Below, one piece after another: positions 4,859 through 53,478 of a stretch of DNA of 64,000 nucleotides. The notes beneath the pieces are model-generated. The model did not search any database. It worked only from the letters and a program-made list of their open reading frames with translations, and was not told the origin of the DNA. Numbering within the stretch: position 1 is the first letter of the stretch; every line of letters begins with the position of its first letter. Origin of the DNA: an uncultured Gammaproteobacteria bacterium (GTDB lineage: Bacteria > Patescibacteriota > Patescibacteriia > Patescibacteriales > UBA12465); assembly GCA_964540285.1 (NCBI GenBank), contig CAZILW010000001.1, positions 63,703 to 127,702 on the forward strand, read 5' to 3'. The position numbers were made by a program, and so were the translations under genes.

Positions 4859-5635
4859 CTAATTAATTTCAAAAAAATTCAAAGCAATAGTAGTGTTAAT
4901 ATTAATATTGCTAATTAAATAAGACATTAAGTTACCATTGACTTGAGGAACAACCTCTTCGGAGTTAACATACAAAGTTCCCACTACGCCAAAAGGATAA
5001 GTATTATACTGTATTTCAACAATAATATTTGACCCTTCTAAAACCTCAACACCTCCAAATTCATTAACATCAGTTATTGTACCAACCACAAAACCATCAT
5101 CTATAATTCTAATAAAATCAAAAGTGGTATACCCTGCGCCACTATAATTTATACCAAAACTAACAAAAACACTCCCCGCCCCACCAGTGTTTCCACTACT
5201 ACCTATTATTATTCCCCCTGGGGTCATTTGTTTAGCTCCTTGGGGTAAATCTGAGACTTGTTTGCCGGTACAGAAATCTATGGTATAGCTGGCACCATTG
5301 TTTTGAGGAGTGTAGATATAGGTATTAGATGCAGATTGACAGTTTCCATCAGCTGGAGTAGGAGAGGAAGGAATATTGTACATAAATACATTATTGCTAG
5401 ATTCAGACTCTATGATACCACTATTCCATTCTTCTTCTGTAGGATATCTTCCATTTTCATTGAAGAATAGTTCTAGGGCAGTTTGTACTTGTTTCATATC
5501 GGCCATTCTTTTACTATCTCTAGCATTTTGTCTGGCTTGTTGTAGGGCTACTACAGCAAGGGTTGCTAATATACCAATAATAGCTATTACTACTAGGAGT
5601 TCGATGAGGGTAAACCCTCGTTTTTGTTTGAACAT
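4859..5635 (-). CDS. Type IV pilin-like protein (prepilin N-terminal cleavage/methylation domain) with Gly/Ser/Thr-rich C-terminal domain
   Basis: N-terminus [20 protein letters not shown] is the class III signal and N-methylation motif. The first 70 aa are about 80% identical to the N-termini of the two FISUMP-pilin genes. Confidence 0.85.
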
Positions 5636-6951: not shown

Positions 6952-9018
6952 TCAATTATACGTTTCAATATAAGCCACCGAAACTCCACCTGAAAAATTA
7001 CTATCCAAAGAGTAAAAAGAAGAAACTAGTTCACCTTTAACATTAAAAGCTCTTACATGAGGAGCTCCGCCCGGTCCAGCACCACAAATTATCTCATCTA
7101 TTCCATCCTTATTTAGATCTCCAATCGATAAATTAACTCCTCCTCTAAAATTCTCCCCGTAAGCCAATATTTTTTTTCTTTCTTTACCAAAATTATCAAA
7201 AATTTTAATTTCTGATAAACGTCCTGGTCCAGGAGAGGTTATTATTTCTTTTTTATTTTTAGTTTTTTGACCGTAAACATTAGCTACGGCTACTTTGACC
7301 CCACCATAAAAATTATTTTCATAAGCAAAAAACTGGCCTTTTAACTTAGCCTGATTATCAAAAATACGAACGTGAGGACCACCACCAACACCAGCTCCGG
7401 TTATAATTTCAGAAACTCCATCTCCATCAATATCACCAACAGCAACATTAACACCACCTCTAAATTTTTCATCATAGGCAAAAAACTGACCTTTTAAATT
7501 GCCACGAACATCAAAAATACGAACGTGAGGACCACCACCAACACCAGCTCCGGTTATAATTTCAGAAACTCCATCTCCATCAATATCACCAACAGCAACA
7601 TTAACACCACCTCTAAATTTTTCATCATAGGCAAAAAACTGACCTTTTAAATTGCCACGAACATCAAAAATACGAACGTGAGGACCACCACCAACACCAG
7701 CTCCGGTTATAATTTCAGAAACTCCATCTCCATCAATATCACCAACAGCAACATTAATTCCCCCACGAAAAGAGTCATCATAAACGTTAAAATTGTTTAA
7801 AAGTTTGCCCTTATTATTACTAAAACTTAAAGAATAAATATTTTTATCCGACTGATAACTTTTAACCTCAGCTTGAGGAGCGAACAAAAACATTCCTGAT
7901 AAATTTTGCCACTTTTCATCAGCCCATCTGGCGGAATTTAAAGCATTAACCCGGCCAATCCCTAATTGATCCTTATAAGAACTATTAAGAATATTAATAT
8001 CATCCGAACTTTTAAGTAAAATATCTAGCAATTCTCTTTGGTTTAATTTAGGGTTTATCTGCTTAATTAATCCTAGAGTTCCACTAACAACAGCGGCCGA
8101 CATAGAAGTTCCCGACCAATAGCCTTGATATTCTGAATATTTATTATTTTCTAAATCATAAAATGAAGTAGAAAAGAAACTAAGACCAGGAGCAGAAATA
8201 TCAACACACCTTGATCCATAGGATGAAAAACTTGCCTTTTGATCCATAGAATCTAAAGCTGAAACACCCAAAACAAAACTAGATGAATCATAAAAATCAA
8301 AACAAGCTGGATAACTCGAATTTTTATTTAAATTAAAATTATTATTTCCAACAGCCGAAACAACTATAACGCCAGCTCTATGAGCCCTCTTGATAGCATC
8401 CTCAAATCCCTGATTATAATCAGGCCCAGAAAAGCTCAAGTTTATAATATCAGCTCCGTTATTTACAGCATAATCAATCGCCCTAATAACATCATTAATC
8501 CTTCCCTCACCTTTTTCATTTAAAGCTCTAAGAGCCATAATCTTTGATTTACTAGCAATACCACTTATTCCCAAATCATTGTCGGTTCTAGCAGCTATTA
8601 TTCCAGAAATCATAGTTCCGTGATTTAAACCATCATCATTAGAGCTAGAAGATAATACGGGTCGAGGATTTGGTGTGTTTTCAACAAAATTCCAACCAAA
8701 AATATCATCTATAAAGCCGTTTCTATCATCATCTAGACCATTTTCAATTTCTAAATTATTAATCCAAATATTTCCATGCAAATCAGGATGATCAATATCA
8801 ACTCCCGAATCAATAACCGCTATAACAGGAGACTCGCCCCTAAGATCATAACCCCAAGTATAAGAAGCTCCTATTTTTTTTAAATACCATTGATTTTTAT
8901 AATACTCATCATTTGGTGATGAAAAAGTTTGAGCCTTAACTAAATTAAAATTAGATAAAAATAAAAAAAACGCTAAGAAAACTGCCGCTACTTTTTGTTT
9001 GGCTTTAAATCTTAGCAT
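6952..9018 (-). CDS. Secreted subtilisin-like serine protease (S8) with C-terminal FG-GAP repeats
   Basis: Signal peptide. Catalytic triad motifs VIDSGVD (Asp), HGTMISG (His), GTSMSAAVVSG (Ser). Five C-terminal repeats FRGGVNVAVGDIDGDGVSEIITGAGVGGGPHVR (FG-GAP with DxDGDG Ca-binding loop). Confidence 0.85.
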   Translation of the reverse strand: MLRFKAKQKVAAVFLAFFLFLSNFNLVKAQTFSSPNDEYYKNQWYLKKIGASYTWGYDLRGESPVIAVIDSGVDIDHPDLHGNIWINNLEIENGLDDDRNGFIDDIFGWNFVENTPNPRPVLSSSSNDDGLNHGTMISGIIAARTDNDLGISGIASKSKIMALRALNEKGEGRINDVIRAIDYAVNNGADIINLSFSGPDYNQGFEDAIKRAHRAGVIVVSAVGNNNFNLNKNSSYPACFDFYDSSSFVLGVSALDSMDQKASFSSYGSRCVDISAPGLSFFSTSFYDLENNKYSEYQGYWSGTSMSAAVVSGTLGLIKQINPKLNQRELLDILLKSSDDINILNSSYKDQLGIGRVNALNSARWADEKWQNLSGMFLFAPQAEVKSYQSDKNIYSLSFSNNKGKLLNNFNVYDDSFRGGINVAVGDIDGDGVSEIITGAGVGGGPHVRIFDVRGNLKGQFFAYDEKFRGGVNVAVGDIDGDGVSEIITGAGVGGGPHVRIFDVRGNLKGQFFAYDEKFRGGVNVAVGDIDGDGVSEIITGAGVGGGPHVRIFDNQAKLKGQFFAYENNFYGGVKVAVANVYGQKTKNKKEIITSPGPGRLSEIKIFDNFGKERKKILAYGENFRGGVNLSIGDLNKDGIDEIICGAGPGGAPHVRAFNVKGELVSSFYSLDSNFSGGVSVAYIETYN
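7290..7760. repeat. Perfect 153-bp tandem repeats (about 3 copies) inside the S8 protease gene
   Basis: Unit starting gaggaccaccaccaacaccagctccggttataatttcag recurs at 7374, 7527 and 7680 with 100% identity over two full units. Encodes identical 51-aa FG-GAP repeats. Confidence 0.85.
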
Positions 9019-16504: not shown

Positions 16505-19015
16505 TTAATTTAATAAAGTAGTAAAAGCAACAACATTACCATAAGAAATTCCCTTCTCGTTCACAGCATAAGCTCTGAAATAATAAGTCGTGTTAGGATG
16601 TAAAATATCAATAGTTTTGCTAAATACTGAATTATGATTGGTTATTCTAATAATATTTACATTGTTGGAGATATATTCAAGATTATTATGATCGGCCCAA
16701 ATAATTCCTCTGGCATAAACCGTACCACCTCCATTGGCCGTCACCTGACCATTTAATGTGGCTACATTAGCGGTCAAATTGGTAGCTGACTCAGTGGACA
16801 CGGTAGGAAGAGATATTGCAGGAAAGTCTTCTCCTTTTATGCACCTAACGGAAATGCCACTATAGTCGTACGCATTGTTATATATTGGATTAACGTCAGT
16901 ATTTGTTAAAATATAGTAACGAGTAGTGCTAAGAGTAGCAATTGATAATGTCCAAAAATTAGCCCGAGTTCCAATATAGGAAAAATTAGTCGTCTTAATT
17001 CCGGATGGTAAAATTGAAAAATTAAAATAATTAGTACCAACAGAAGAAGAATTGTCCCAACGAGGATGATCACTAACATTACAAACACCGCCTAAGGAAG
17101 AATCGACCATTCTACAAGATTTTAAGGTTAGAGAATTGTTTGATCCAATGGAATTATTAAGCTCAACAAAATCAGAGTAAAAAGGAACTCTCCATCCAGG
17201 CGGACAAATTCTTCTAGGGTCAGAAACGGCTAACATTGAATAAAGTTTTCCGTAGGATGCATAACTAGAATTATCCTCATAAAAAGTCCAAACAGGATAA
17301 TTTAAATTAGACCAAGAACCAGCCTGGTTTGTAATAGAATCTCCATTTCTAAATTTGTCCGTTCTTAGGTTTTCGGCGAGCCAACATTTAGTTCCAACAC
17401 CTATTGTTTGATAAATGTATCCGTTGTAATCAACTGCATAACTCCCAACACAAGGATCTAGGGTAGTAAAAGCAACAACATTACCATAAGAAATTCCCTT
17501 CTCGTTCACAGCATAAGCTCTGAAATAATAAGTCGTGTTAGGATGTAAAATATCAATAGTTTTGCTAAATACTGAATTATGATTGGTTATTCTAATAATA
17601 TTTACATTGTTGGAGATATATTCAAGATTATTATGATCGGCCCAAATAATTCCTCTGGCATAAACCGTACCACCTCCATTGGCCGTCACCTGACCATTTA
17701 ATGTGGCTACATTAGCGGTCAAATTGGTAGCTGACTCAGTGGACACGGTAGGAAGAGATATTGCAGGAAAGTCTTCTCCTTTTATGCACCTAACGGAAAT
17801 GCCACTATAGTCGTACGCATTGTTATATATTGGATTAACGTCAGTATTTGTTAAAATATAGTAACGAGTAGTGCTAAGAGTAGCAATTGATAATGTCCAA
17901 AAATTAGCCCGAGTTCCAATATAGGAAAAATTAGTCGTCTTAATTCCGGATGGTAAAATTGAAAAATTAAAATAATTAGTACCAACAGAAGAAGAATTGT
18001 CCCAACGAGGATGATCACTAACATTACAAACACCGCCTAAGGAAGAATCGACCATTCTACAAGATTTTAAGGTTAGAGAATTGTTTGATCCAATGGAATT
18101 ATTAAGCTCAACAAAATCAGAGTAAAAAGGAACTCTCCATCCAGGCGGACAAATTCTTCTAGGGTCAGAAACGGCTAACATTGAATAAAGTTTTCCGTAG
18201 GATGCATAACTAGAATTATCCTCATAAAAAGTCCAAACAGGATAATTTAAATTAGACCAAGAACCAGCCTGGTTTGTAATAGAATCTCCATTTCTAAATT
18301 TGTCCGTTCTTAGGTTTTCGGCGAGCCAACATTGATTACCTATAACAACAGTTTTATAATTATAACCATTATAAACAATACTTTGACCACAATTTAAAGA
18401 GTCAACAACACATTCACCACCCTGACAAACATAACCATTATTACAAGATGGCTCACATAAATACTGGGAATCTATCAAATCAAAACTATTGTTAGTTTCT
18501 TCGCCACTATTGTTCTGATCACCAGGCTCATCACCGCCACCATTATTATCACCACCACTATTATCTCCCAAGCAGTCATAATTCATTATACCTCCAGGAG
18601 TAGCACATTTTAAACCTTCAGATAGGTTAGAGACATCATTTCCTAGACAAAATGATAAAGTGTAGGTAGAATTATCTTCGCTTACTTGATAGTAGAAGTT
18701 ATTTTGACTGGCATCACATACTCCATCAGCTGGATAAGGAGCAGAAGGAATATTATACATAAGTACTTGACCACTGGAAGTAATAAGAGAACCGCTTAAC
18801 CATTCTTCTTCAGTAGGATATCTTCCCTGTTCATTAAAAAATAATTCTAGGGCTGTTTGAGCTTGTTTTATATCAGCTAGTCTTTTACTATCACGAGCTC
18901 TAGAGCGAGCTTGTTGTAGGGCTACCACAGCTAGAGTAGCAAGTATTCCAATAATAGCTATTACTACTAATAACTCGACGAGAGTGAAGGCTTTTTTATA
19001 CTTTATTGGATTCAT
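16505..19015 (-). CDS. Prepilin-N-terminus protein fused to two FISUMP domains and Fn3-like modules
   Basis: N-terminus [20 protein letters not shown] (prepilin motif); Gly/Asp/Asn-rich linker. Two 315-aa repeats each contain CWLAENL...GKLYSMLAV...CPPGWRVP...SVRCIK, which matches the TIGR02145 FISUMP domain pattern. Confidence 0.8.
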   Translation of the reverse strand: MNPIKYKKAFTLVELLVVIAIIGILATLAVVALQQARSRARDSKRLADIKQAQTALELFFNEQGRYPTEEEWLSGSLITSSGQVLMYNIPSAPYPADGVCDASQNNFYYQVSEDNSTYTLSFCLGNDVSNLSEGLKCATPGGIMNYDCLGDNSGGDNNGGGDEPGDQNNSGEETNNSFDLIDSQYLCEPSCNNGYVCQGGECVVDSLNCGQSIVYNGYNYKTVVIGNQCWLAENLRTDKFRNGDSITNQAGSWSNLNYPVWTFYEDNSSYASYGKLYSMLAVSDPRRICPPGWRVPFYSDFVELNNSIGSNNSLTLKSCRMVDSSLGGVCNVSDHPRWDNSSSVGTNYFNFSILPSGIKTTNFSYIGTRANFWTLSIATLSTTRYYILTNTDVNPIYNNAYDYSGISVRCIKGEDFPAISLPTVSTESATNLTANVATLNGQVTANGGGTVYARGIIWADHNNLEYISNNVNIIRITNHNSVFSKTIDILHPNTTYYFRAYAVNEKGISYGNVVAFTTLDPCVGSYAVDYNGYIYQTIGVGTKCWLAENLRTDKFRNGDSITNQAGSWSNLNYPVWTFYEDNSSYASYGKLYSMLAVSDPRRICPPGWRVPFYSDFVELNNSIGSNNSLTLKSCRMVDSSLGGVCNVSDHPRWDNSSSVGTNYFNFSILPSGIKTTNFSYIGTRANFWTLSIATLSTTRYYILTNTDVNPIYNNAYDYSGISVRCIKGEDFPAISLPTVSTESATNLTANVATLNGQVTANGGGTVYARGIIWADHNNLEYISNNVNIIRITNHNSVFSKTIDILHPNTTYYFRAYAVNEKGISYGNVVAFTTLLN
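16518..18333. repeat. Two tandem copies of a 945-bp unit with about 870 bp of 100% nucleotide identity, inside the pilin-FISUMP gene
   Basis: Copy A 16518-17388 is identical to copy B 17463-18333 (offset 945). The identical false ORFs 16906..17088 and 17851..18033 reflect this duplication. Confidence 0.9.
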
Positions 19016-27845: not shown

Positions 27846-28577
27846 TCAAAAATTTAAATAAGTCAATTTTTTTCTTATAAAACCTTGAAAGTTTTTGTTT
27901 ATTTCCAGGTTTAATAAACAATAAAAATCGCTCTTTTTTATAAAATTTTTCAAAATTAATAAGTCTTTGCTTATTTTTAAGTTATTATCTTTGTTTAAAG
28001 ATTTATTGAAAAGCTCTCTATTAAAACAGCTATTACAAACAACCCCTCCCTTATCAAAATTAATAAAATCTAAATTATCCACACATCCACAATCAACACA
28101 TTCAGATACCTGATAGGAATAACCCAACACTTCAAGCAATTTAAATTTAAAAATATCACTCAAAAAATCAAGTTCTTTTAGATTTTTATTTTTAATAAGT
28201 TTAGCCGAATCATTAATCATCTTTAAAAAATTATTTAAAAAAATAAAAAGATCAAAATCTGCTTGCCCCTCTTTCACATACTGATTAAAAAAATTTAAAA
28301 TCTTACCACTTAAAAAAAGTGAATTATAGTCATTTTTTAAGTTCAAAAAAGAGTCTTGGCTAATAACACTACCAACACTTAAACCATTTTTATTTTTAAT
28401 TATCATTAAATCTACAAAATTAAAAGGTTCAAGATGGGCTACCAACTTAGATCCCTGTTTTCTGGCTCCTCTAGCGCTTAAGACAAGTTTTCCAAAATCT
28501 AAAGTATAAAAAAAAATCAAAGCATCATTATCTTTGTATGGCAGTCTGTTTAATATTATAGCTTTTGTTCTTATCAT
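27846..28577 (-). CDS. recO: DNA repair protein RecO
   Basis: N-terminal OB-fold start MIRTKAIIL and C-terminal zinc motif CVDCGC ... CNSC. Confidence 0.7.
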   Translation of the reverse strand: MIRTKAIILNRLPYKDNDALIFFYTLDFGKLVLSARGARKQGSKLVAHLEPFNFVDLMIIKNKNGLSVGSVISQDSFLNLKNDYNSLFLSGKILNFFNQYVKEGQADFDLFIFLNNFLKMINDSAKLIKNKNLKELDFLSDIFKFKLLEVLGYSYQVSECVDCGCVDNLDFINFDKGGVVCNSCFNRELFNKSLNKDNNLKISKDLLILKNFIKKSDFYCLLNLEINKNFQGFIRKKLTYLNF

Positions 28578-28954
28578 TTTCTATCTAAATAAGATTGAAG
28601 AATTATCATGGCAGACAAAGAATCTCTGTTATTATTTATTTTTTTATTCATTATAGAGTCCGCTTGAACGCTGGAAAGCCTTTCATCAATTAAAACCACC
28701 CTAATCTCATCTCTATTAATATTATTTTCAATAAAGTTAATAAACCTTAAAAAATTGGGATTATCAGTATCTTTTCCGCTCATTTTTTTTGGATTTCCGA
28801 TAACTAAAAAATTTATTTTTTCATCACTTACGACTTTAAGCAATGCAGATGGACTAGAAACAACCTTAAAAGGAGTGGAAATTCCATTTTCACTATCAGC
28901 TAGGGCCAAGCCTATTCTTTTTTCACCCCAATCAACACCTAAATATTTAATCAT
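28574..28954 (-). CDS. ruvX: Holliday-junction resolvase-like RuvX/YqgF
   Basis: MIKYLGVDWGEKRIGLALAD RNase H-like start; 126 aa. Confidence 0.85.
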   Translation of the reverse strand: MIKYLGVDWGEKRIGLALADSENGISTPFKVVSSPSALLKVVSDEKINFLVIGNPKKMSGKDTDNPNFLRFINFIENNINRDEIRVVLIDERLSSVQADSIMNKKINNNRDSLSAMIILQSYLDRK

Positions 28955-29784
28955 TTTTCAGTTAAAATTATATTGCCATCTTCAATAATGGCAATTGAAT
29001 GCTCGTAATGAGAACTTAAGGATCCATCGGAGGTTATAAAAGTATATGTATTTTTAGCCACCTTAATATTAAATTTACCAGCATTAATCATTGGTTCAAT
29101 AGCTATAACCATCCCAGGTCTTAAAACTAAATTTTCGCTACTTTTTTCTCCTATCTCGTAATTAAAAACATGGGGCTCCTCATGAGCCTTATAACCAACA
29201 CCATGACCAACTAAATCTCTAACAACACTAAAGCCATTTTTAACAACAAAACCCTCTATTGCCTTACCAATATCATTTAAAGTTGCTCCCGGCTTAGCCT
29301 TGCTTATTCCCAAATACAGAGCATCTTTTGATATTTTAATTAATTTAGTAGCATCTTTTGATATCTTACCCACAGGAACTGTTCGACACATATCAGTATA
29401 AAAACCACCACCCTTAGAAAGGTGATTAAATGGTCGATTGTTTTTTTTAGCTTCTTCCTTGCTCTGAATTGGCCATTCCATTCCAATATCTAGCCCAACT
29501 ATATCGCCTGATTTTAAAACTCTATTTGGCAAAGCCGCCCCATGAACAACCTCATTGTTTATAGAGACACAAAGAGTTGATGGAAAAAAAATTTTACCTC
29601 CCATTGGGTAATTTTTAAAGGCTGGACGACCGCCTTTTAACTCAATCAAAGATGTGGCTAGGTTTTCTAAATCCTCTGATTTAACACCAGGTTTAACTAT
29701 TTTACAAACCTCATCTAAAACTTCCGAGAGGATTTCACCCCCCCTTTTTAATATTTTTATCTCTTCTAAAGTCTTAAGTTTCAT
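28951..29784 (-). CDS. map: Methionine aminopeptidase type I
   Basis: Metal ligands in DIGMEW ... HGVGYKAHEEP ... IEPMIN. Confidence 0.9.
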   Translation of the reverse strand: MKLKTLEEIKILKRGGEILSEVLDEVCKIVKPGVKSEDLENLATSLIELKGGRPAFKNYPMGGKIFFPSTLCVSINNEVVHGAALPNRVLKSGDIVGLDIGMEWPIQSKEEAKKNNRPFNHLSKGGGFYTDMCRTVPVGKISKDATKLIKISKDALYLGISKAKPGATLNDIGKAIEGFVVKNGFSVVRDLVGHGVGYKAHEEPHVFNYEIGEKSSENLVLRPGMVIAIEPMINAGKFNIKVAKNTYTFITSDGSLSSHYEHSIAIIEDGNIILTEK

Positions 29785-43457: not shown

Positions 43458-44615
43458 TTAATAATTAATATAAATATTTTGATAATCATGATTATATAAT
43501 TGTAAAATTTCATCAGCGCTTAAAACTCGATTATAAATTCTCGTCCTACCAATCTCACCTAAAAAATTCCAAGGATTTCCACCTATAATACCATTGCCCC
43601 AACTACCTGAGCCAAAGGTCAAGTCATTTATATTATCAATTTTTGCATATTCATTTAAAATTTTAGTACTCCAATTTTGTCCATTTAAATAGAAGCTAAA
43701 TACTTGACTTTGCCCAGTTCCACTGTAGGTCATAACCGCCTGATACCAGTCATTCAAATCTATTGAGTATCGATCTGTTATTCTATGAATACCGTCACCC
43801 CTAATAACAGCATAAATATCTATAATATTTGTTGTCAAATTATTATATTGAATATTTATTCCAAAACCAGTTCCACCTTTACCTTTAGAAACAACCCCAG
43901 CATTTCTACTATAAACATCATCCAAACAAATTTCATTCATTTTCATCCAGGTAACTATAGTAAAGTCATCGTATGTGCCAAAATCAAATTCATTTCCCTC
44001 TTGATAATAAGCTCTAGCCAATATATTCCCACTCGGAGAATTTCCGGAATATTTTGGTTTTATAGAATAAGGATTAAAACCCCAAATAGTATTATTTCCA
44101 ACAAAAACATCATTATTTCTAGTATAGTCAAAGGCTGTTTGTCCCTCACCTTCGTCAAACTTCCAAAAGCCAACTAAACCATCTACAATAACTTTTTCAT
44201 GACAATCATCATGCACAACATCATTAGAGTCAAGACATTTTAAGCCAGAACTATAATTATCAATACTTCCCTCCAAAAAAAATTCTAAACTATAATAATC
44301 ATTTTTTAAATCTTTATAATAAATAATGTTACTGGGAATATTATTATAAAAAACACTACCATTAGATCCAATAATCTGACCACCACCCTCAATAACCTCT
44401 GTGTCCGGATACCCTCCCTCTATCATCTTGTAGGCCTCGAGTGCCATTTGAAACTCTTTTATTTCCGATAAAACTTTTTTATCCCTAGCTGACCTTTTAA
44501 TAACATTAACTGAGGCAATAGCTACGGTTGTTACTAAAGAAATAATTAAAATAACAATTATAAGCTCTATAAAAGTGAAGGCTCTTCTTTTGTTGTTTTT
44601 AAAAAGAAAACTCAT
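43458..44615 (-). CDS. Prepilin-N-terminus protein fused to LamG/ConA-like lectin domain
   Basis: N-terminus KRRAFTFIELIIVILIISLV. C-terminal GEIGRTRIYNRVLSADEILQLYN is the Laminin_G_3 (PF13385)-type ending. Confidence 0.8.
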   Translation of the reverse strand: MSFLFKNNKRRAFTFIELIIVILIISLVTTVAIASVNVIKRSARDKKVLSEIKEFQMALEAYKMIEGGYPDTEVIEGGGQIIGSNGSVFYNNIPSNIIYYKDLKNDYYSLEFFLEGSIDNYSSGLKCLDSNDVVHDDCHEKVIVDGLVGFWKFDEGEGQTAFDYTRNNDVFVGNNTIWGFNPYSIKPKYSGNSPSGNILARAYYQEGNEFDFGTYDDFTIVTWMKMNEICLDDVYSRNAGVVSKGKGGTGFGINIQYNNLTTNIIDIYAVIRGDGIHRITDRYSIDLNDWYQAVMTYSGTGQSQVFSFYLNGQNWSTKILNEYAKIDNINDLTFGSGSWGNGIIGGNPWNFLGEIGRTRIYNRVLSADEILQLYNHDYQNIYINY

Positions 44616-44640
44616 ATTCTATATTAATTAATAAATAAAA

Positions 44641-45840
44641 TTAATTTTGATAGTATTCTTTAATATTGTTATACAAACCAAAAACCTCTTCCGCTGATAA
44701 AGGCTTATTAAAATACATTGCATCGTTTATACGACCTTGAAAATAGGATTCGGTAGTGCTACCACCCTTGCCTAGAAACATAGGCTTGTCAGTTCCTATA
44801 TTCATCACGGTATTTTCGATTTCAGATATCAACTGACCATTCTTGTAAAATCTACGAAAATAACCATCATCAGTTAAAACAATAAAATGCCAACCATCTG
44901 GGTATTTACTTAAAACATAATCTTCTATGGACCACCATTGCCTGTCAACAGAATCAATTGAATTTTGACTAGCAATTTTACCAGAATAAAGGGCTAGTCC
45001 CCAACGACCCAAACTCAAACCAGTACCCCACAACAATCCTCCTGAACCCTGTGGTTTTGTACCATCCAACCAAAGAGCTAAAGAATATTCTGTTTGTTTT
45101 GGCATTGTTGAAATATTAAAAAAATCATCAACTCCATCGAAATAAACAAAGCCGTCAATTAGTTTAGGCTGCAAGTCAATATTAGATTGTTCAGCATTTT
45201 TTCTTTGATAAGAAAGGTCAAAGATTGTTTGAACCATTTCACTGTTATCAGGATTAAGCTTAACCCCACCATCAGAAGACAAAAAGAGAATTAAATTATT
45301 ATAAATGTTGCTATTTTGAAAATAACTAAACAAATTATAAGTCTTACCTCTATTTAAGATGACTCCATTCCCACTACTAACAAAATCTAAATAATCCAAA
45401 CAGGCGCCTCGACAACAAGAAAAGTCAAAAATACCAGCAGAACTAAAACATTTATTTCCAGGACTAAAATTTTCATTAAAATTTTCAACCTCTAAAGCAA
45501 TATCATAACTTAAATCCGAAGAATTAAAAAAATAATCAACACCCTCAGGAATGTTTTCTAAAAAAATTAAACCAGAAGAACTACCAACAAGAGCTTGTCC
45601 CGAAATCAATTGTTCAGGATATCTGCCTTCAACATTTTTATAACTCTCTAAGGCTATTTGAACTTGGCTTATATCGTTAATTTTTTTTAAATCTTTACCT
45701 CTACTTCTAGACCTAGAAATGTTAACCATCACTAAAGTAGAAATTAAAGCAATGATAAAAACGACCACTAAAATTTCAATAAAGGTAAAAGCCTTTTTGT
45801 TTTTAAATAGATAAATATTCATATCGTTAATATAAAACAA
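44641..45840 (-). CDS. Prepilin-N-terminus protein fused to LamG/ConA-like lectin domain (paralogue)
   Basis: N-terminus KKAFTFIEILVVVFIIALIS; C-terminus GRINDAMYFNKPLSAEEVFGLYNN. Confidence 0.8.
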   Translation of the reverse strand: MFYINDMNIYLFKNKKAFTFIEILVVVFIIALISTLVMVNISRSRSRGKDLKKINDISQVQIALESYKNVEGRYPEQLISGQALVGSSSGLIFLENIPEGVDYFFNSSDLSYDIALEVENFNENFSPGNKCFSSAGIFDFSCCRGACLDYLDFVSSGNGVILNRGKTYNLFSYFQNSNIYNNLILFLSSDGGVKLNPDNSEMVQTIFDLSYQRKNAEQSNIDLQPKLIDGFVYFDGVDDFFNISTMPKQTEYSLALWLDGTKPQGSGGLLWGTGLSLGRWGLALYSGKIASQNSIDSVDRQWWSIEDYVLSKYPDGWHFIVLTDDGYFRRFYKNGQLISEIENTVMNIGTDKPMFLGKGGSTTESYFQGRINDAMYFNKPLSAEEVFGLYNNIKEYYQN

Positions 45841-48006: not shown

Positions 48007-48093
48007 ATGTTATTTAAAGAGTTTTAAGAGTTTTAGTACTTTCAAGACTCTTAGGATACTTATATTTAATTATTATATTATATATTTAATTCT

Positions 48094-48314
48094 ATATTTT
48101 GAGTGAAATTTGAGGAAAAGACGAGAAGCGAAGTGAGTCGTATTTTAATACGATGAACGAGCCTCGCAGTCTTTGACAAAAAATTTCACCAAAACTTTTT
48201 CTCCTAAAACTTTATATTTTGAGTGAAATTTGAGGAAAAGACGAGAAGCGAAGTGAGTCGTATTTTAATACGATGAACGAGCCTCGCAGTCTTTGACAAA
48301 AAATTTCACCAAAA
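48094..48314. repeat. Two tandem copies of an ~101-bp hairpin-forming element (18-bp spacer) between rpsG and fusA
   Basis: Copy 1 48094-48194 and copy 2 48213-48314 are identical. Each has terminal inverted repeats gtgaaattt/aaatttcac and an internal tcgtat-ttta-atacga hairpin. Confidence 0.85.
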
Positions 48315-48326
48315 TTTAAAGTTTTA

Positions 48327-48858: not shown

Positions 48859-49278
48859 TTAAGCCTTTGGTTTTTTAGCACCATAACAACTTCTTCCCTG
48901 TCTTCTAGCTTCAACACCTTGAGCATCATAAACTCCACGAACAACTTTATATCTAACACCTGGTAAATCTTTTGTTTTTCCACCCTTAATAAGAACGATT
49001 GAGTGTTCTTGTAAGTTATGTCCCATTCCAGGAATATAGGCAGTCACCTCCATACCATTTGATAAACGAACACGAGCAATTTTACGTAAAGCTGAGTTCG
49101 GCTTCTTAGGGGTCATGGTAGTAACCTTAAGACAAACACCCTGTTTAAAAGGAGAGCCACTTTTAGTAACTTTTTTCTTACGATGTAAAGAATCTAAGCT
49201 GGTACGCAATGCTAAGTTCTTTTTTCTCTTACTGGAAGGTTTTCTTCCTTTTCTAACTAACTGATTGATAGTTGGCAT
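48859..49278 (-). CDS. rpsL: 30S ribosomal protein S12 (with about 14-aa insertion near the N-terminus)
   Basis: [12 protein letters not shown] ... [10 protein letters not shown] ... GHNLQEHS ... DLPGVRY. Confidence 0.95.
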
Positions 49279-49410: not shown

Positions 49411-51612
49411 TTATTCCTTAATACATCTAATATAACGACCATAAATAGAACTAATAGGCACAGTACTTGTCGTCAAAATTATTGATCCGCCAGTGTTGTA
49501 TATATAATACAAACCTGTCCCAAGATCGTCTATGGTTCTCGTCCAAAGCCAAAAACCACTTCCAAAATAAGGCCACTGTGTTGAATATTTATGACCACCA
49601 GGAAGCAAAGAAAAGCCAAGATCATCGGTGCCATAAACAGTATCAGATGCCCAATATGGATGCTCTGAAGTTACACATTCACCTCCCAAAGGAGAATTAA
49701 CTTGGCGACACGATCTTAAATTGTAAACATTATATGCACCAATACTGTTGACCAAAGAAATAAAATCATCTCTGGTTGGCACTATCCAGCCATCAGGACA
49801 AACCCCCCTAGGATCAATTATGGTATAAGAAGAATAAACATAACCATAAAGATTTCCATAAGTAGAAAGAAAGTCATACAAAGGATAATTCGCTCCACTC
49901 CAACTTCCAGTTACCCGAGGAATACTGTCACCATTTTTAAACTTATCAGTTTTAAGATTTTCTTTAAACCAGCATTGATCGCCGATAGCAACCGTTGGAT
50001 AATTATAACCATTATAAGAAACAGAACTTAAGCCCGAACAAGGATCTGTGGTTGTAAAAGAAAGAACATTGCCATAACCTACTCCAACTTCATTGACAGC
50101 ATAAGCTCTGATATAATAAGTTTTTCCAGCTTGAAGACCATAAAAAACATCAGAAACAAAAGAGGAGGAACTTAAAGTTGAATGTAAAAACTTTGAATTA
50201 CCATCACCGATTAAGGGATTATCATTTTCACTCCAGACAACACCACCAGAATGAACAGGAGATCCGCCATCATTACTTATTGTTCCCCCAGAAAAAGCTC
50301 TATTTGCTGAAACATTATTTACAACACCAGTAATAACGCTAGGGATGGTTTTAGGGCTAGTGTCTGTTTTTTTAATACATCTAATATAGCGACCATAAAT
50401 AGAGTCAATAGGAACAGTACTCGCCGTCGAAATTGTTGGTCCGCTTGTATTATATATATAATACAAGCTAGACCCAGTACTATTAGCAGTTGAAGTCCAA
50501 AGCCAAAAACCACTTCCAAAATAAGGCCACTGTGTTGAATATTTATGACCACCAGGAAGCAAAGAAAAGCCAAGATCATCGGTGCCATAAACAGTATCAG
50601 ATGCCCAATATGGATGCTCTGAAGTTGCACATTCACCTCCCAAAGGAGAATTAACTTGACGACACGATCTTAAATTGTAAACATTATACGTACCAATACT
50701 GTTGACTAAAGAAATAAAATCATCTCTGGTTGGCACTATCCAGCCATCGGGACAAACCCCTCTAGGATCGGTTATAGTATGAGATGAATAAACATAACCG
50801 TAAAGATTTCCATAAGTAGAAAAAAAATCATAAGCTGGATAATAAGAAGAATTACTATGATAAGAAATCCAAGAAGGTATAGTTGATCCCCAGCTTCCAG
50901 TTACCCGAGGAATACTGTCTCCATTTTTAAATTTATCAGTTTTAAGATTTTCTTTAAACCAGCATTGAGCTCCGATGCCTACTGTTTGGTAGGTGTGGCC
51001 GTTATAGGTGATATTTTGACCACATTCAAAAACATCAAGAACACAAGAACTGTTTTGACAAATATAACCAGACTGACAATCAGGATAACAAACATTGAGA
51101 TTTGGATTTTCATTATTATCTCCTCCTCCGGTGTCTCCGCCTCCAGTGTCTCCGCCTAGGCAATCATAATTCATTATTCCTCCAGGAGTAGCACATTTTA
51201 AACCTTCAGATAGGTTAGAAACATCATTGCCTAGACAAAATGATAAAGTGTAAGTAGAGTTATCTTCGCTTACTTGATAGTAGAAGTTATTTTGACTGGC
51301 ATCACATACTCCATCAGCCGGATAAGGAGCAGAAGGAATATTATACATCAGTACTTGACCACTTGAGGTAATAAGAGAACCACTTAACCATTCTTCTTCA
51401 GTAGGATATCTTCCCTGTTCATTAAAGAATAATTCTAGGGCTGTTTGGGCTTGTTTAATATCAGCTAGTCTTTTACTATCACGAGCTCTAGAGCGAGCTT
51501 GTTGTAAAGCTACAACAGCTAGAGTGGCCAGTATTCCAATAATAGCAATTACTACTAGAAGCTCAACGAGGGTAAAAGCTTTTTTGTTTTTTTGAAAATT
51601 GTTTTTAAACAT
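49411..51612 (-). CDS. Prepilin-N-terminus protein fused to two FISUMP domains (paralogue of 16505..19015)
   Basis: The first ~150 aa are nearly identical to 16505..19015. Two FISUMP units (CWFKENL...GNLYGYVYS...CPDGWIVPT...RCIK) are about 90% identical to each other. Confidence 0.8.
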   Translation of the reverse strand: MFKNNFQKNKKAFTLVELLVVIAIIGILATLAVVALQQARSRARDSKRLADIKQAQTALELFFNEQGRYPTEEEWLSGSLITSSGQVLMYNIPSAPYPADGVCDASQNNFYYQVSEDNSTYTLSFCLGNDVSNLSEGLKCATPGGIMNYDCLGGDTGGGDTGGGDNNENPNLNVCYPDCQSGYICQNSSCVLDVFECGQNITYNGHTYQTVGIGAQCWFKENLKTDKFKNGDSIPRVTGSWGSTIPSWISYHSNSSYYPAYDFFSTYGNLYGYVYSSHTITDPRGVCPDGWIVPTRDDFISLVNSIGTYNVYNLRSCRQVNSPLGGECATSEHPYWASDTVYGTDDLGFSLLPGGHKYSTQWPYFGSGFWLWTSTANSTGSSLYYIYNTSGPTISTASTVPIDSIYGRYIRCIKKTDTSPKTIPSVITGVVNNVSANRAFSGGTISNDGGSPVHSGGVVWSENDNPLIGDGNSKFLHSTLSSSSFVSDVFYGLQAGKTYYIRAYAVNEVGVGYGNVLSFTTTDPCSGLSSVSYNGYNYPTVAIGDQCWFKENLKTDKFKNGDSIPRVTGSWSGANYPLYDFLSTYGNLYGYVYSSYTIIDPRGVCPDGWIVPTRDDFISLVNSIGAYNVYNLRSCRQVNSPLGGECVTSEHPYWASDTVYGTDDLGFSLLPGGHKYSTQWPYFGSGFWLWTRTIDDLGTGLYYIYNTGGSIILTTSTVPISSIYGRYIRCIKE

Positions 51613-51621
51613 TGATAAAAA

Positions 51622-53478
51622 TTATTCTAAAACTGCTTTAATTCTTCTAACACCAGAACTAGAACTCTCTTCTTTTTGTATTTTAAATACACCTAAATTC
51701 TCCAGGCTTTCAACATGCGGACCACCACAAATTTCTTTGGAAAAATTACCAACAGAATATACTTTTACCTTCTCTCCATATTTGGACTCAAAAACACCAG
51801 TCGCCCCCATTTGCTTAGCTTCATCTAAAGTCATCTCACTACAATCAACTGCTAGTCCCTTTTGAATATTTTCATTTACTAAATCTTCAACTTGTTTTTT
51901 TTGTTCATCAGTCATTTTTTCTGGATGAGAAAAATCAAAACGAAGTCTTTCAGCAGTAATATTGCTTCCTCTTTGAGCGACATGATCACCCAAAACCCTC
52001 CTAAGAGCTTCTAGTAGTAAATGAGCTGCGGTATGAAGCTTGGTTGTCTCCTCGCTTTGATCAGCCAACCCCCCCTTGAATTTACCAGCGCTAGCCGTTT
52101 TAGATAATTCCTGATGTTTGTTTAAAGCTTGATTATATTCATCCAAAAAATTATCTGATTTAGAAATATTTTTTTCTTCTATAATCTCTAGTGTCATCTC
52201 GAGTGGATAGCCATGACTTTGAAATAAATTAAAAGCAATTTCACCATTAATCTTTTCCCCTTTTTCAACCAAGCTATTTAAAACTCTTTCCCCTTTTTCT
52301 ATGGTTTTGTTAAATTTCTCTTCTTCTTCATTTAATGATTTGAAAATAAATTCTCTATTTTTATCTAATTCACTATAAGAATCTTTATAGAATTCAACTA
52401 TAACTTGGCTAAGCTCAGCAATAAGATTTTTTTGTTCTATTTTTAATTGTTTCAAATAACGCACCGCCCTTCTGATAAGACGTCTAATAATATAACCTTG
52501 GTCGGTATTGGATGGGCTAAGCCCCTTGTCATCTCCCAATAAAAAAGTAGCACCTTTTATATGATCAGCTATAACTTCAAAAGCTTTTTTATTATCCTCA
52601 TATTTAAGTCCAGAAATATTTTCGAGTCTATCTACAATAGAACCAAGAGAGTCAATTTTAAAAATATTGCCTAAATTATTTTTTACCATTACAATTCGCT
52701 CCAGTCCCCCACCAAAATCAACATTTTTGTTTTCTAATTCTTTCCAACCATCGACTGTTTTTTGGTATTGCATAAAAACAGAATTGCCAATTTCAATAAA
52801 TCTTCCACAATCACAATTCAAATGACAATGCTCACCAAATTTTGGATCATGTTCTTTGCCGGTATCATAAAAAGTTTCACTATCTGGACCACCTAATTCT
52901 CCAATGGCATCGCCTCTCTGCCACCAATTTTTGTCTCGATAAGCAAAGATTCTATCTTTGGAAAAATCGAGCTCTATACCAGGCCCTTCATCTCCCTTGG
53001 TAATTGTTTCTGGACCTTCACTGGCTTCAATTCCGTATTTTTTGTAAATATTTTTTAAAATTGCAATAGACTCTTCATCTTTGACTATGCTTTTGCCGTC
53101 ACCAACATAAACAGTCTGATAAATTTTATTAATATCAAAGCCTAGCTCTTCTATTAAAAATTCAAACCACCAATTGAGTTGCTCTTCTTTAAAATAATTA
53201 CCCAAGCTCCAATTACCAAGCATTTCAAAAAAGGTATTATGACGACCATCACCAACGTCGTCAATATCTTCGGAACGGAAACATTTCTGACTATTTACTA
53301 AACGAAGGCCAGCTGGATGTTTTTCACCTAAAAGATATGGCACCAAAGGAAACATACCAGAATTGGTAAATAAAAGACTAGAATCATTTTCAGGAATGAG
53401 CGATGAAGACGATATCAGGGCGTGTTGTTTTTTTTGAAAAAATTCAAAATATTTCTGTCTAATTTCACTGGTTTTCAT
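51622..53478 (-). CDS. alaS: Alanyl-tRNA synthetase, compact form (618 aa, lacks C-Ala domain)
   Basis: Catalytic-core motifs FTNSGM and WGGP-like region; editing-domain HTAAHLLLEALRRVLGDHVAQRGS. Confidence 0.85.
   Translation of the reverse strand: MKTSEIRQKYFEFFQKKQHALISSSSLIPENDSSLLFTNSGMFPLVPYLLGEKHPAGLRLVNSQKCFRSEDIDDVGDGRHNTFFEMLGNWSLGNYFKEEQLNWWFEFLIEELGFDINKIYQTVYVGDGKSIVKDEESIAILKNIYKKYGIEASEGPETITKGDEGPGIELDFSKDRIFAYRDKNWWQRGDAIGELGGPDSETFYDTGKEHDPKFGEHCHLNCDCGRFIEIGNSVFMQYQKTVDGWKELENKNVDFGGGLERIVMVKNNLGNIFKIDSLGSIVDRLENISGLKYEDNKKAFEVIADHIKGATFLLGDDKGLSPSNTDQGYIIRRLIRRAVRYLKQLKIEQKNLIAELSQVIVEFYKDSYSELDKNREFIFKSLNEEEEKFNKTIEKGERVLNSLVEKGEKINGEIAFNLFQSHGYPLEMTLEIIEEKNISKSDNFLDEYNQALNKHQELSKTASAGKFKGGLADQSEETTKLHTAAHLLLEALRRVLGDHVAQRGSNITAERLRFDFSHPEKMTDEQKKQVEDLVNENIQKGLAVDCSEMTLDEAKQMGATGVFESKYGEKVKVYSVGNFSKEICGGPHVESLENLGVFKIQKEESSSSGVRRIKAVLE

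What the first reader, a model, noticed from the sequence alone, without database searches (positions are those of the whole stretch)
49411..51612. Second pilin-FISUMP paralogue next to rpsL whose 5' ~430 bp is ~95% identical to the first
Two paralogous pilin-FISUMP genes bracket the ribosomal super-operon, one immediately upstream of rpsL and one about 30 kb away. Their first ~430 bp (18600-19015 vs 51180-51612) are nearly identical, while the C-terminal FISUMP cargo has diverged.

This cassette-like organisation, a conserved pilin handle with variable cargo, fits homologous-recombination-mediated cargo shuffling. The inverted-or-direct long identical segments could also mediate rearrangement of the intervening essential region. 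Inside this gene the two FISUMP units are themselves about 97% identical at the DNA level (49560-49760 vs 50500-50700).
Basis: seen in the sequence. Interest (0 to 1): 0.6.

Follow-up and report, generated by a model that had tools for sequence, protein, structure and literature searches.

The report
Pilin adhesin paralogues sharing a recombined handle
Two large pilus-subunit genes of an ultra-small (Patescibacteria) bacterium carry the same anchoring module joined to very different binding modules, because that module was copied between them by recombination; the protein type is already catalogued and the process is ordinary, but it is clearly documented here.

Summary
Gene B (49411-51612, minus) and gene A (16505-19015, minus) share a 432-nt segment at 93.1% identity, not 95%. 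It encodes 144 identical residues. The remaining aligned codons are 55% identical. The repeats are direct.

Both genes are modular type IV pilins: prepilin leader, pilin module, disordered linker, then FISUMP and Fn3 modules. This architecture is already catalogued (Raynaud 2021).

B sits between alaS and rpsL in four related genomes. Synonymous divergence is 0.37 for the A/B handle and about 1.6 for the A/B cargo. Between the window and its nearest relative it is 0.55-1.0. So the handles coalesced after that speciation and the cargoes before it. This indicates partial gene conversion, not whole-gene duplication with uneven selection.

Metagenome contigs show two further mosaic junctions inside A's handle, though these could be assembly chimeras. 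Related genomes carry at least three to six paralogues of this handle with different cargoes.

I found no silent cassettes, recombinase, G4 motif or DGR, so programmed switching is unsupported. Crossing-over between A and B would delete essential genes. The adhesin function is inferred only.

The parts
49411..51612 (-). Gene B: 733-aa modular type IV pilin (leader, pilin module, linker, FISUMP, Fn3, FISUMP)
   Evidence: ORF. Pfam N_methyl 1.6e-8, T2SSG, Fib_succ_major 1.6e-51 in 2 stretches; TIGR02145 3.8e-38. AF2 model shows four folded domains and a disordered linker. The exact protein is encoded on L001 and L002.
51577..51612 (-). B leader peptide MFKNNFQKNKKA, with predicted prepilin-peptidase cleavage before FTLVE
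   Evidence: Read from the sequence; N_methyl/TIGR02532 match. It differs from A's leader MNPIKYKKA.
51154..51585 (-). B copy of the shared handle (pilin module, residues 10-153)
   Evidence: 432 nt, 93.1% identical to 18566-18997, 144/144 aa identical, dS 0.37, dN 0.003. AF2 gives helix 15-66 plus a beta-sheet, pLDDT about 90.
51031..51153 (-). Gly/Asp/Asn-rich linker followed by a Cys-rich knot (CYPDCQSGYICQNSSC)
   Evidence: pLDDT below 50 for residues 154-191. Unalignable between A and B.
50368..51027 (-). B FISUMP unit 1
   Evidence: Pfam stretch 211-414; unit boundaries; tblastn.
50053..50340 (-). B Fn3-like domain
   Evidence: AF2 beta-sandwich, residues 425-520. Foldseek PDB hits to titin and other Fn3 domains, E about 3e-5, TM(target) 0.65-0.79.
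49414..50043 (-). B FISUMP unit 2
   Evidence: Domain-only AF2 model has pLDDT 84 and pTM 0.85.
49541..49840 (-). Core of B's internal repeat (partner 50495-50794): 96% over 300 nt, about 140 nt identical
   Evidence: (D4). Within this core B1-B2 identity (95-100%) exceeds orthologous B1-X1 and B2-X2 identity.
16505..19015 (-). Gene A: 836-aa paralogue (leader, same handle, linker, two FISUMP+Fn3 units)
   Evidence: The YbjQ-to-A junction and handle are confirmed in L036-L040 and L042.
18566..18997 (-). A copy of the shared handle
16518..18333 (-). A internal tandem duplication: two 871-nt exactly identical copies (16518-17388 and 17463-18333), period 945
   Evidence: (D3). The unit1-unit2 junction is confirmed by L038. 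One-unit versions occur in L004, L027 and L036.
4859..5635 (-). Gene C: 258-aa pilin with a related handle (65% nt, dS about 1.2-1.3) and a non-FISUMP tail
43458..45840 (-). Genes E (43458-44615) and D (44641-45840): two prepilin + LamG modular pilins between fusA and tuf, with a more divergent handle (36% aa)
   Evidence: The homologous position in L003 holds three Laminin_G_3 genes.
48859..49278 (-). rpsL, immediately downstream of B (132-nt spacer)
   Evidence: PF00164 on L001-L003.
51622..53478 (-). alaS-like gene, whose stop lies 9 nt upstream of B's start codon
   Evidence: PF01411/PF07973. alaS-pilin-rpsL synteny in L003, L006, L007 and L023.
27846..28954 (-). RecO (27846-28577) and RuvX (28574-28954): homologous-recombination proteins encoded in the same window
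   Evidence: Pfam RecO_N/RecO_C and RuvX. Context only.

Best explanation
B is a modular type IV pilin of a Falkowbacteria-like Patescibacteria genome. A prepilin leader and a complete pilin module of about 145 residues (the 'handle') are joined through a disordered linker to FISUMP-Fn3-FISUMP cargo. The gene is resident between alaS and rpsL throughout this clade (shown). Its handle and that of paralogue A descend from one copy that was transferred between the two loci by homologous recombination (partial gene conversion). The transfer happened after the lineage split from its nearest sequenced relative, whereas the cargoes separated long before that split (shown by synonymous-site dating). 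Since the transfer, the two handles have accumulated only silent changes, so the protein module is under very strong constraint (shown). The likely reason is that every such subunit must be processed by the same peptidase and fit the same pilus core (inferred). Across the family the handle is the common assembly adaptor. It is also the only long stretch of homology between loci, so occasional RecA-type exchange within it produces mosaic handles and can re-pair handle, flank and cargo (suggested by mosaic contigs and by patchy identity in other genomes). The cargo is most likely a surface-exposed ligand-binding module used for attachment to host cells or particles (inferred by analogy only).
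For: Architecture.
- Pfam and NCBIfam hits.
- AF2 model: pilin head (pLDDT about 90), linker (pLDDT below 50), two FISUMP domains, one Fn3.

Synteny.
- alaS-pilin-rpsL in L003, L006, L007 and L023.

Dating.
- A/B handle: dS 0.37, dN 0.003. A/B cargo: dS 1.57, dN 0.56. Fisher test on synonymous differences: p = 5e-11.
- Window vs L003 orthologues, dS: alaS 1.02, fusA 0.74, murB 0.73, rpsL 0.55, B cargo 0.67, B handle 0.89.
- The handle is therefore not intrinsically slow-evolving, yet the paralogues are closer to each other (93%) than B is to its orthologues (72-87% nt).

Mosaics at the A locus.
- L004/L027 equal the window with 0 mismatches over 2,097 nt. They have 21 mismatches in the preceding 214 nt of the handle and an unrelated M50-peptidase flank. 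Clustering probability is about 1e-22.
- L041 equals the window for 944 nt (YbjQ plus the first 278 nt of the handle), then has 45 mismatches in 157 nt with a P0127-like handle end. Clustering probability is about 1e-38.

Other genomes.
- Patchy high identity occurs between paralogue handles: PHAI01 L010/L013 at 96% and 91% in nt 120-240; JALNZW01 L014/L020 at 95% in nt 60-120.

Substrate and machinery.
- Exact runs of 59, 49, 44 and 41 nt remain between A and B.
- RecO and RuvX are encoded in the window.

Intragenic conversion.
- The B1/B2 core is 95-100% identical, against 78-97% for the orthologous comparisons.

Function by analogy.
- Modular pilins PilB and PilC of S. sanguinis (PMC8179133, PMC9934059).
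- Lectin-like PilX1 and PilX2 of Saccharibacteria TM7x are needed for host binding (PMC11623550).
- FISUMP occurs among DGR-diversified ligand-binding target domains (PMC11661182).
Against: - No orthologue of A was found in any other species; the best hits are 43-50% identical. I therefore cannot show that A had a different handle before the exchange.
- Direction and donor are unknown, and a third paralogue outside the window could be the source of both handles.
- The mosaic contigs are short MEGAHIT or JGI metagenome contigs. They could be de Bruijn-graph chimeras between paralogues or strains, and no reads were available.
- L027's left flank is 97.5% identical to a contig (L033) whose pilin handle is 100% identical to that of a different GTDB species representative. 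This raises the chimera risk.
- The protein searches are not exhaustive: one search failed to return B or P0122.
- No pilus machinery genes lie in the window.
- FISUMP has no solved structure or tested function. The best Foldseek hit, the Lcl C-terminal domain, is not significant (E = 1.8). hhalign to DUF1566 gives 10% probability.
Confidence: 0.7

Rival explanations
1. Domain shuffling rather than conversion. A was created recently when a copy of B's handle (or that of another paralogue) was fused onto a pre-existing handle-less FISUMP-Fn3 gene at the YbjQ locus.
For: No A orthologue was found in other species. Handle-less FISUMP-Fn3 proteins are abundant in other phyla. The dating result fits this equally well.
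Against: A and B share the whole architecture beyond the handle: acidic/Gly linker, a Cys-rich knot with a shared GY-x-CQ core (CEPSCNNGYVCQGGEC in A, CYPDCQSGYICQNSSC in B), FISUMP, Fn3, FISUMP. That argues for whole-gene paralogy. Pilin-FISUMP fusions with this handle are the norm at several loci in the clade.
Confidence: 0.15
2. Plain whole-gene duplication with no recombination. The handle stayed similar through purifying selection while the cargo diverged through relaxed or diversifying selection.
For: dN of the handle is about 0, and the cargo has high dN (0.56).
Against: Silent sites differ four-fold (dS 0.37 vs 1.57, p = 5e-11). Between orthologues the handle is not slower than the cargo at silent sites (0.89 vs 0.67). 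The identity boundaries are abrupt on both sides.
Confidence: 0.06
3. A programmed, high-frequency variation system: pilE/pilS-like cassette conversion, a shufflon, or a DGR that swaps or mutates cargo on a constant pilin.
For: The constant-5'/variable-3' layout resembles R64 PilV and Neisseria PilE. FISUMP is a known DGR target domain elsewhere. Mosaic contigs exist.
Against: Every handle and FISUMP copy in the window lies in a complete ORF with its own start codon and leader; there are no silent or truncated cassettes. No recombinase or RT was found among the ORFs scanned, and no YxDD reverse-transcriptase motif. No G4 motif is present, only chance-level short inverted repeats, and mismatches are not adenine-specific. 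29 fixed silent differences show that A/B exchange is rare. B is 100% identical in two other assemblies.
Confidence: 0.05
4. Assembly artefact: the shared segment, or A's perfect internal duplication, was produced by mis-assembly of repeats.
For: Handles and internal repeats clearly disturb assemblies. L006 has an N-gap inside the gene. L007 lacks one unit. L036 switches to a flank that is about 96.5% identical after the repeat.
Against: A's and B's handles, each with its unique flanks, are reproduced at 99.8-100% in independent contigs from several samples. The 30 A/B differences are stable. A's unit1-unit2 junction is present in L038.
Confidence: 0.04

Closest known systems
Modular type IV pilins (S. 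sanguinis PilB/PilC; survey of Raynaud et al. 2021, PMC8179133)
   Same: An N-terminal pilin module with a class III signal peptide is joined by a linker to a bulky extra module presented by the pilus. The survey's Dataset S1 lists IPR012902-IPR011871 (40 proteins, fifth most common) and IPR012902-PF13385 (229 proteins, most common). Many of the representative proteins in its figure are from candidate-phyla bacteria. That IPR011871 is the FISUMP entry is from my memory of InterPro, not tested here.
   Different: B and A carry several extra modules (FISUMP-Fn3-FISUMP, and two FISUMP+Fn3 units). Their handle is a full-size pilin module matching stand-alone pilins of about 145 aa. The paper does not address recombination between the pilin modules of paralogues.
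Lectin-like minor pilins PilX1 and PilX2 of Saccharibacteria TM7x (PMC11623550)
   Same: They are Patescibacteria pilins with large C-terminal domains. They were shown to contribute to host binding, with glycan-binding folds predicted.
   Different: The C-terminal folds differ (jelly-roll, beta-propeller). [quoted passage not shown] No shared-handle paralogy is described.
Neisseria pilE/pilS antigenic variation
   Same: RecA-dependent gene conversion between pilin gene copies produces mosaic pilins. Conserved sequence serves as the homology anchor (established knowledge; PMC2188307 and PMC4877100 listed).
   Different: In Neisseria, silent 5'-truncated cassettes donate variable 3' sequence to one expression locus at high frequency, helped by a G4 element. 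Here all copies are complete genes, the exchanged stretch is the conserved module, no G4 exists, and the A/B exchange is old (dS 0.37).
R64 shufflon (PilV C-terminal switching by Rci)
   Same: A constant pilin N-terminal part is combined with alternative C-terminal segments that determine binding specificity (established knowledge).
   Different: The shufflon uses a site-specific recombinase and short inverted sfx repeats at a single locus. Neither is present here.
DGR-diversified C-type-lectin-like, DUF1566 or FISUMP target proteins
   Same: FISUMP is reported as a variable-region-bearing target domain in 43 proteins (PMC11661182). This supports a ligand-binding role.
   Different: There is no RT, no template repeat and no adenine-specific mismatch pattern in this window.

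Membership tests
Type IV pilin / prepilin (class III signal peptide) | Short basic leader ending in G/A, then F/M, a hydrophobic stretch and Glu at +5 | tested here: met
   B has MFKNNFQKNKKA|FTLVE and A has MNPIKYKKA|FTLVE. PF07963 E = 1.6e-8 and 1.8e-7; TIGR02532 above its cut-off. Position -1 is Ala, not the usual Gly.
Type IV pilin / prepilin (class III signal peptide) | Long N-terminal alpha-helix packed on an antiparallel beta-sheet head | tested here: met
   AF2 model: helix 15-66, strands 87-147, pLDDT 86-95. T2SSG PF08334 is just above its cut-off. This is a prediction, not an experimental structure.
Type IV pilin / prepilin (class III signal peptide) | Dedicated machinery (prepilin peptidase, assembly ATPase, platform) in the genome, and incorporation into filaments | not testable with these tools
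   No pil machinery genes were found in the 64-kb window among the ORFs inspected. The rest of the genome is not available.
Modular pilin (sensu Raynaud et al. 2021) | Pilin module plus at least one extra domain not specific to pilus biology, joined by a linker | tested here: met
   The architecture IPR012902-IPR011871 is listed in their Dataset S1.
FISUMP (TIGR02145 / PF09603) | Match to the family model above the curated cut-off | tested here: met
   B: PF09603 175.7 bits (cut-off 33.9) and TIGR02145 131.9 bits (cut-off 41.65), two stretches. A: 196.1 and 176.2 bits.
FISUMP as a C-type-lectin-like / DUF1566-related binding fold | Significant structural or profile similarity to a solved lectin-like domain | tested here: inconclusive
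pilE/pilS-type antigenic variation | Silent, promoterless, 5'-truncated donor cassettes | tested here: not met
   tblastn finds only the four FISUMP units and five handles, all inside complete ORFs. Only this window was tested.
pilE/pilS-type antigenic variation | G-quadruplex-forming sequence near the expression locus | tested here: not met
   No G4 motif on either strand of the window.
Shufflon (Rci/sfx) | Site-specific recombinase and short inverted repeats flanking invertible C-terminal segments | tested here: not met
   Only 18-21-nt imperfect inverted repeats were found. No recombinase appeared among the scanned ORFs or in the annotations of syntenic loci.
Diversity-generating retroelement target | Nearby RT, and a TR/VR pair differing at adenines | tested here: not met
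   No RT-like ORF, and B1/B2 mismatches are spread over all four bases. B is 100% identical across three assemblies.
Gene conversion between paralogues (concerted evolution) | In the converted tract only, paralogues within a genome are closer than orthologues between genomes, with abrupt boundaries | tested here: met
   Handle: A/B 93% vs B/orthologues 72-87% nt; dS 0.37 vs 0.89. Cargo: A/B 55% nt, dS 1.57 vs B/L003 0.67. The orthologue of A itself is missing.

The most novel reading that the evidence does not exclude
In these episymbiotic bacteria the identical pilin module may act as a portable homology region. It would let whole binding modules, leaders and chromosomal positions be re-paired between at least four pilin loci within a population. 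These are the YbjQ, alaS/rpsL, M50-peptidase and methyltransferase/prfA loci. The result would be a slow combinatorial adhesin-shuffling system that sets host or substrate range. Selection would keep the handle protein identical across loci. Silent divergence between the two direct repeats that flank essential genes would be tolerated, or even favoured, because it lowers lethal deletions.
Probability: 0.25. Interest if true: 0.6.

Novelty: new member of a known kind. Interest (0 to 1): 0.38.

Why it matters
Type IV pili are nearly universal in Patescibacteria and, in the cultivated members, are needed for host attachment. Which host or surface a cell can attach to probably depends on the extra modules carried by pilins like these.

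Each genome in this clade holds several pilins that share one assembly module and carry different cargo. Showing that this module is exchanged between loci gives a concrete, testable route by which attachment repertoires are reassorted in organisms that cannot yet be cultured.

It also has a practical side. The shared handle and the perfect internal repeats break, collapse or chimerise short-read assemblies. Pilin repertoires in such MAGs are therefore likely to be under-counted or mis-joined.

Tried and rejected
- DGR hypothesis. Mismatch spectra are not adenine-specific, and the only YxDD motif lies in an epimerase. Rejected for this window.
- pilE/pilS-like or shufflon-like systems. I found no silent cassettes, no G4, no meaningful inverted repeats, and no recombinase among the Pfam-scanned ORFs.
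- Promoter and terminator scans around both genes gave counts equal to shuffled controls and are uninformative.
- Rfam and tRNA scans of the whole window found nothing.
- Search for an orthologue of A. The metagenome scan returned only a 99%-identical one-unit version. The protein search gave nothing between 50% and 99% identity.
- Search for the full-length 'F' paralogue implied by L041, using a chimeric query. It returned only P0127 and P0125 from other organisms.
- The protein database searches proved non-exhaustive. Searches did not list B, although B is on record. Absences from those lists are therefore weak evidence.
- In one search my L004 rows were out of register by one base and should be ignored.
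Full report
WHAT IS THERE

The window (31% G+C) comes from a Patescibacteria genome close to Candidatus Falkowbacteria, judging by the source names of its nearest homologues and loci.

Gene B (49411-51612, minus strand, 733 aa) lies 9 nt downstream of an alaS-like gene and 132 nt upstream of rpsL. Gene A (16505-19015, minus strand, 836 aa) lies 32.6 kb away, between a YbjQ-family gene and a 262-aa gene of unknown family.

Both proteins match three kinds of model:
- the prepilin N-terminal methylation motif;
- GspG/T2SSG-type pilin models;
- the FISUMP domain, twice (PF09603, TIGR02145).

An AlphaFold model of B shows five regions:
- a canonical pilin, with helix 15-66 and a beta-sheet up to residue 147, pLDDT about 90;
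- a disordered Gly/Asp/Asn linker (154-191);
- a FISUMP domain (about 200-415);
- an Fn3 domain (425-520), with Foldseek hits to titin and other Fn3 structures at E about 3e-5;
- a second FISUMP domain (530-733).

THE OBSERVATION

The shared segment is 18566-18997 vs 51154-51585. It is 432 nt long, has no gaps and is 93.1% identical. All 144 codons encode the same residues.
- It starts exactly at the Lys-Lys-Ala|Phe-Thr-Leu codons. The leader peptides and upstream DNA are unrelated.
- It ends at ...NYDCLG, where the linker begins.
- Beyond that point the aligned codons are 55% identical.
- The copies are direct repeats.

B's two FISUMP units are 86% identical overall and 96-100% identical over a 300-nt core. 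A contains two exactly identical 871-nt copies, with a period of 945 nt.

Independent contigs reproduce B (L001 and L002, 100%). They also reproduce A's handle with its YbjQ flank (L036-L040 and L042). The similarity is therefore not an artefact of this assembly.

The observation itself is sound.

Gene C (4859-5635) has a related handle (65% nt identity) and a non-FISUMP tail. Two further prepilin genes with LamG cargo lie between fusA and tuf (43458-45840). The window therefore encodes five modular pilins.

IS IT A WHOLE-GENE DUPLICATION OR A MOSAIC?

Synonymous sites answer this.

| Comparison | dS | dN |
|---|---|---|
| A/B handle | 0.37 | 0.003 |
| A/B cargo | 1.57 (saturated) | 0.56 |
| B vs L003, cargo | 0.67 | 0.064 |
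| B vs L003, handle | 0.89 | 0.119 |
| alaS, window vs L003 | 1.02 | 0.051 |
| fusA, window vs L003 | 0.74 | 0.026 |
| murB, window vs L003 | 0.73 | 0.062 |
| rpsL, window vs L003 | 0.55 | 0.006 |

The handle/cargo difference in synonymous changes gives Fisher p = 5e-11.

The control is the syntenic orthologue of B in the nearest relative, L003. Its DNA is about 85% identical to the window across alaS to fusA. The table shows that the handle does not evolve slowly at silent sites between species.

Handle identity by nucleotide is 93% for A/B, but only 72-87% between B and its syntenic orthologues in L003, L007, L006 and L023.

The A and B handles therefore share an ancestor younger than the speciation, while their cargoes share one much older. 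This is the signature of partial gene conversion. Less likely, it reflects a recent fusion of a copied handle onto an older cargo gene. Because no orthologue of A was found, I cannot exclude the fusion variant, and I give it 0.15.

A SECOND LAYER: RECENT MOSAICS

Metagenome contigs from other samples carry A-locus variants whose junctions lie inside the handle.

L004 and L027:
- They are identical to the window over 2,097 nt, from 18769 down to 15728, apart from lacking one 945-nt unit.
- They have 21 mismatches in the preceding 214 nt.
- Upstream they carry a different leader and a Peptidase_M50 gene instead of YbjQ.

L041:
- It is identical to the window for 944 nt, covering YbjQ and the first 278 nt of the handle.
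- It then has 45 mismatches in 157 nt.
- Its handle end resembles the paralogue found at a methyltransferase/prfA locus in relatives.

The clustering of mismatches is far beyond chance, at about 1e-22 and 1e-38.

These contigs are either true recombinants or de Bruijn-graph chimeras. A chimera would itself require another pilin locus in the population to share a long exact stretch of handle with A. Either way, very recent sharing of handle sequence between loci is implied. However, a single genome carrying the mosaic is not proven.

Related genomes also show patchy near-identity between paralogue handles.

Within B, the FISUMP cores are more alike than either is to its orthologous unit. Conversion therefore also acts inside the gene.

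The window encodes RecO and RuvX. A and B still share exact runs of 41-59 nt.

WHAT IT IS NOT

- I found no silent cassettes.
- I found no reverse transcriptase and no adenine-biased mismatches.
- I found no G4 motif and no meaningful inverted repeats.
- I found no recombinase among the scanned ORFs.
- The 29 fixed silent differences show that A/B exchange is rare.
- The repeats are direct and enclose rpsL to secY, so a crossover between them would be lethal.

COMPARISON WITH WHAT IS KNOWN

Raynaud et al. (PMC8179133) defined modular pilins. Their survey lists prepilin + IPR011871 (40 proteins) and prepilin + PF13385/LamG (229 proteins) among the commonest architectures, and several of its representative proteins are from candidate-phyla bacteria. 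The equation of IPR011871 with FISUMP is from my memory of InterPro.

In Saccharibacteria, pilins with lectin-like C-terminal domains contribute to host binding (PMC11623550). FISUMP occurs among DGR-diversified target domains (PMC11661182), which fits a ligand-binding role.

FISUMP itself has no solved structure or significant structural neighbour in my searches. Adhesion is therefore an inference by analogy.

I found no paper linking pilins, gene conversion and candidate-phyla bacteria.

ODDITIES LEFT OPEN

- The two handles have zero amino-acid differences against 29 silent ones. The same module shows dN/dS of about 0.13 between orthologues, which predicts about 16 replacements.
- B's orthologues in L003 and L007 each carry a 1-nt deletion inside the handle.
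- A's copy number differs between assemblies. L038 confirms the two-unit junction, whereas L004, L027 and L036 have one unit, possibly through assembly collapse.

VERDICT

The feature is real and the description accurate. The 'handle plus variable cargo' reading is right, and recombination in the handle is well supported.

It is nevertheless an instance of two known things: modular pilins, and gene conversion between paralogues. It is not a new mechanism. It has moderate interest for the biology of episymbiotic bacteria and for metagenome assembly.

Noticed in passing
window 43458-45840 (-): Two prepilin + LamG (PF13385) modular pilin genes are inserted in the str operon between fusA and tuf. 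The relative L003 has three such genes at the same place. B sits directly upstream of rpsL, so pilin genes are repeatedly embedded in the translation-gene cluster in this clade.
   Followed up: partly
window 48088-48317: Two tandem 110-nt direct repeats (97% identical) fill the rpsG-fusA intergenic region. The sequence is conserved at 93-95% in L003 and L006. There is no Rfam match.
   Followed up: no
L003 about 10388; L007 about 10090: The syntenic orthologues of B in two sister species each have a 1-nt deletion inside the pilin module. This splits the gene: in L003, into a 182-aa pilin fragment plus a 570-aa handle-less FISUMP ORF. These could be pseudogenes, off-phase variants or assembly errors.
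   Followed up: partly
window 16518-18333; L004, L027, L036, L038: A's perfect 945-nt-period duplication is present in the window and at the junction in L038. It is reduced to one unit in three short-read contigs. L036 also switches to a flank that is about 96.5% identical after the repeat. This is either copy-number variation or assembly collapse.
   Followed up: partly
window 6952-9018 (-), repeats 7271-7782; L028: An S8 peptidase with FG-GAP-like 153-nt tandem repeats is 688 aa here but 637 aa in contig L028. The difference is exactly one repeat unit (51 aa).
   Followed up: no
window 4859-5635 (-): Pilin C represents a second handle class (...[28 protein letters not shown]). The same C-terminal third recurs, joined to FISUMP-like or repeat-rich cargo, in L010, L012, L014, L015, L017 and L020 of other genomes. 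This is another sign of modular reuse.
   Followed up: partly
window 27846-29784; L033 13032-17267: After map, the r-protein cluster is followed by RuvX, RecO, rpsB and tsf. The infA-rpmJ-rpsM-rpsK-rpsD-rpoA-rplQ block is elsewhere in this clade: in L033 it follows a Peptidase_M50 gene. That M50 gene is also a pilin-FISUMP insertion site in L034 and L004.
   Followed up: partly
window 1-64000: There are no tRNA genes and no Rfam family at gathering threshold in 64 kb. In particular, no ribosomal-protein leader was detected in a window dominated by r-protein operons.
   Followed up: no
The word-indexed protein search did not return B in any of the three searches, and (the handle query) also missed P0122. 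Both contain the query at 97-100% identity and are on record. Hit lengths tracked query length, so absences in those lists are not reliable.
   Followed up: no
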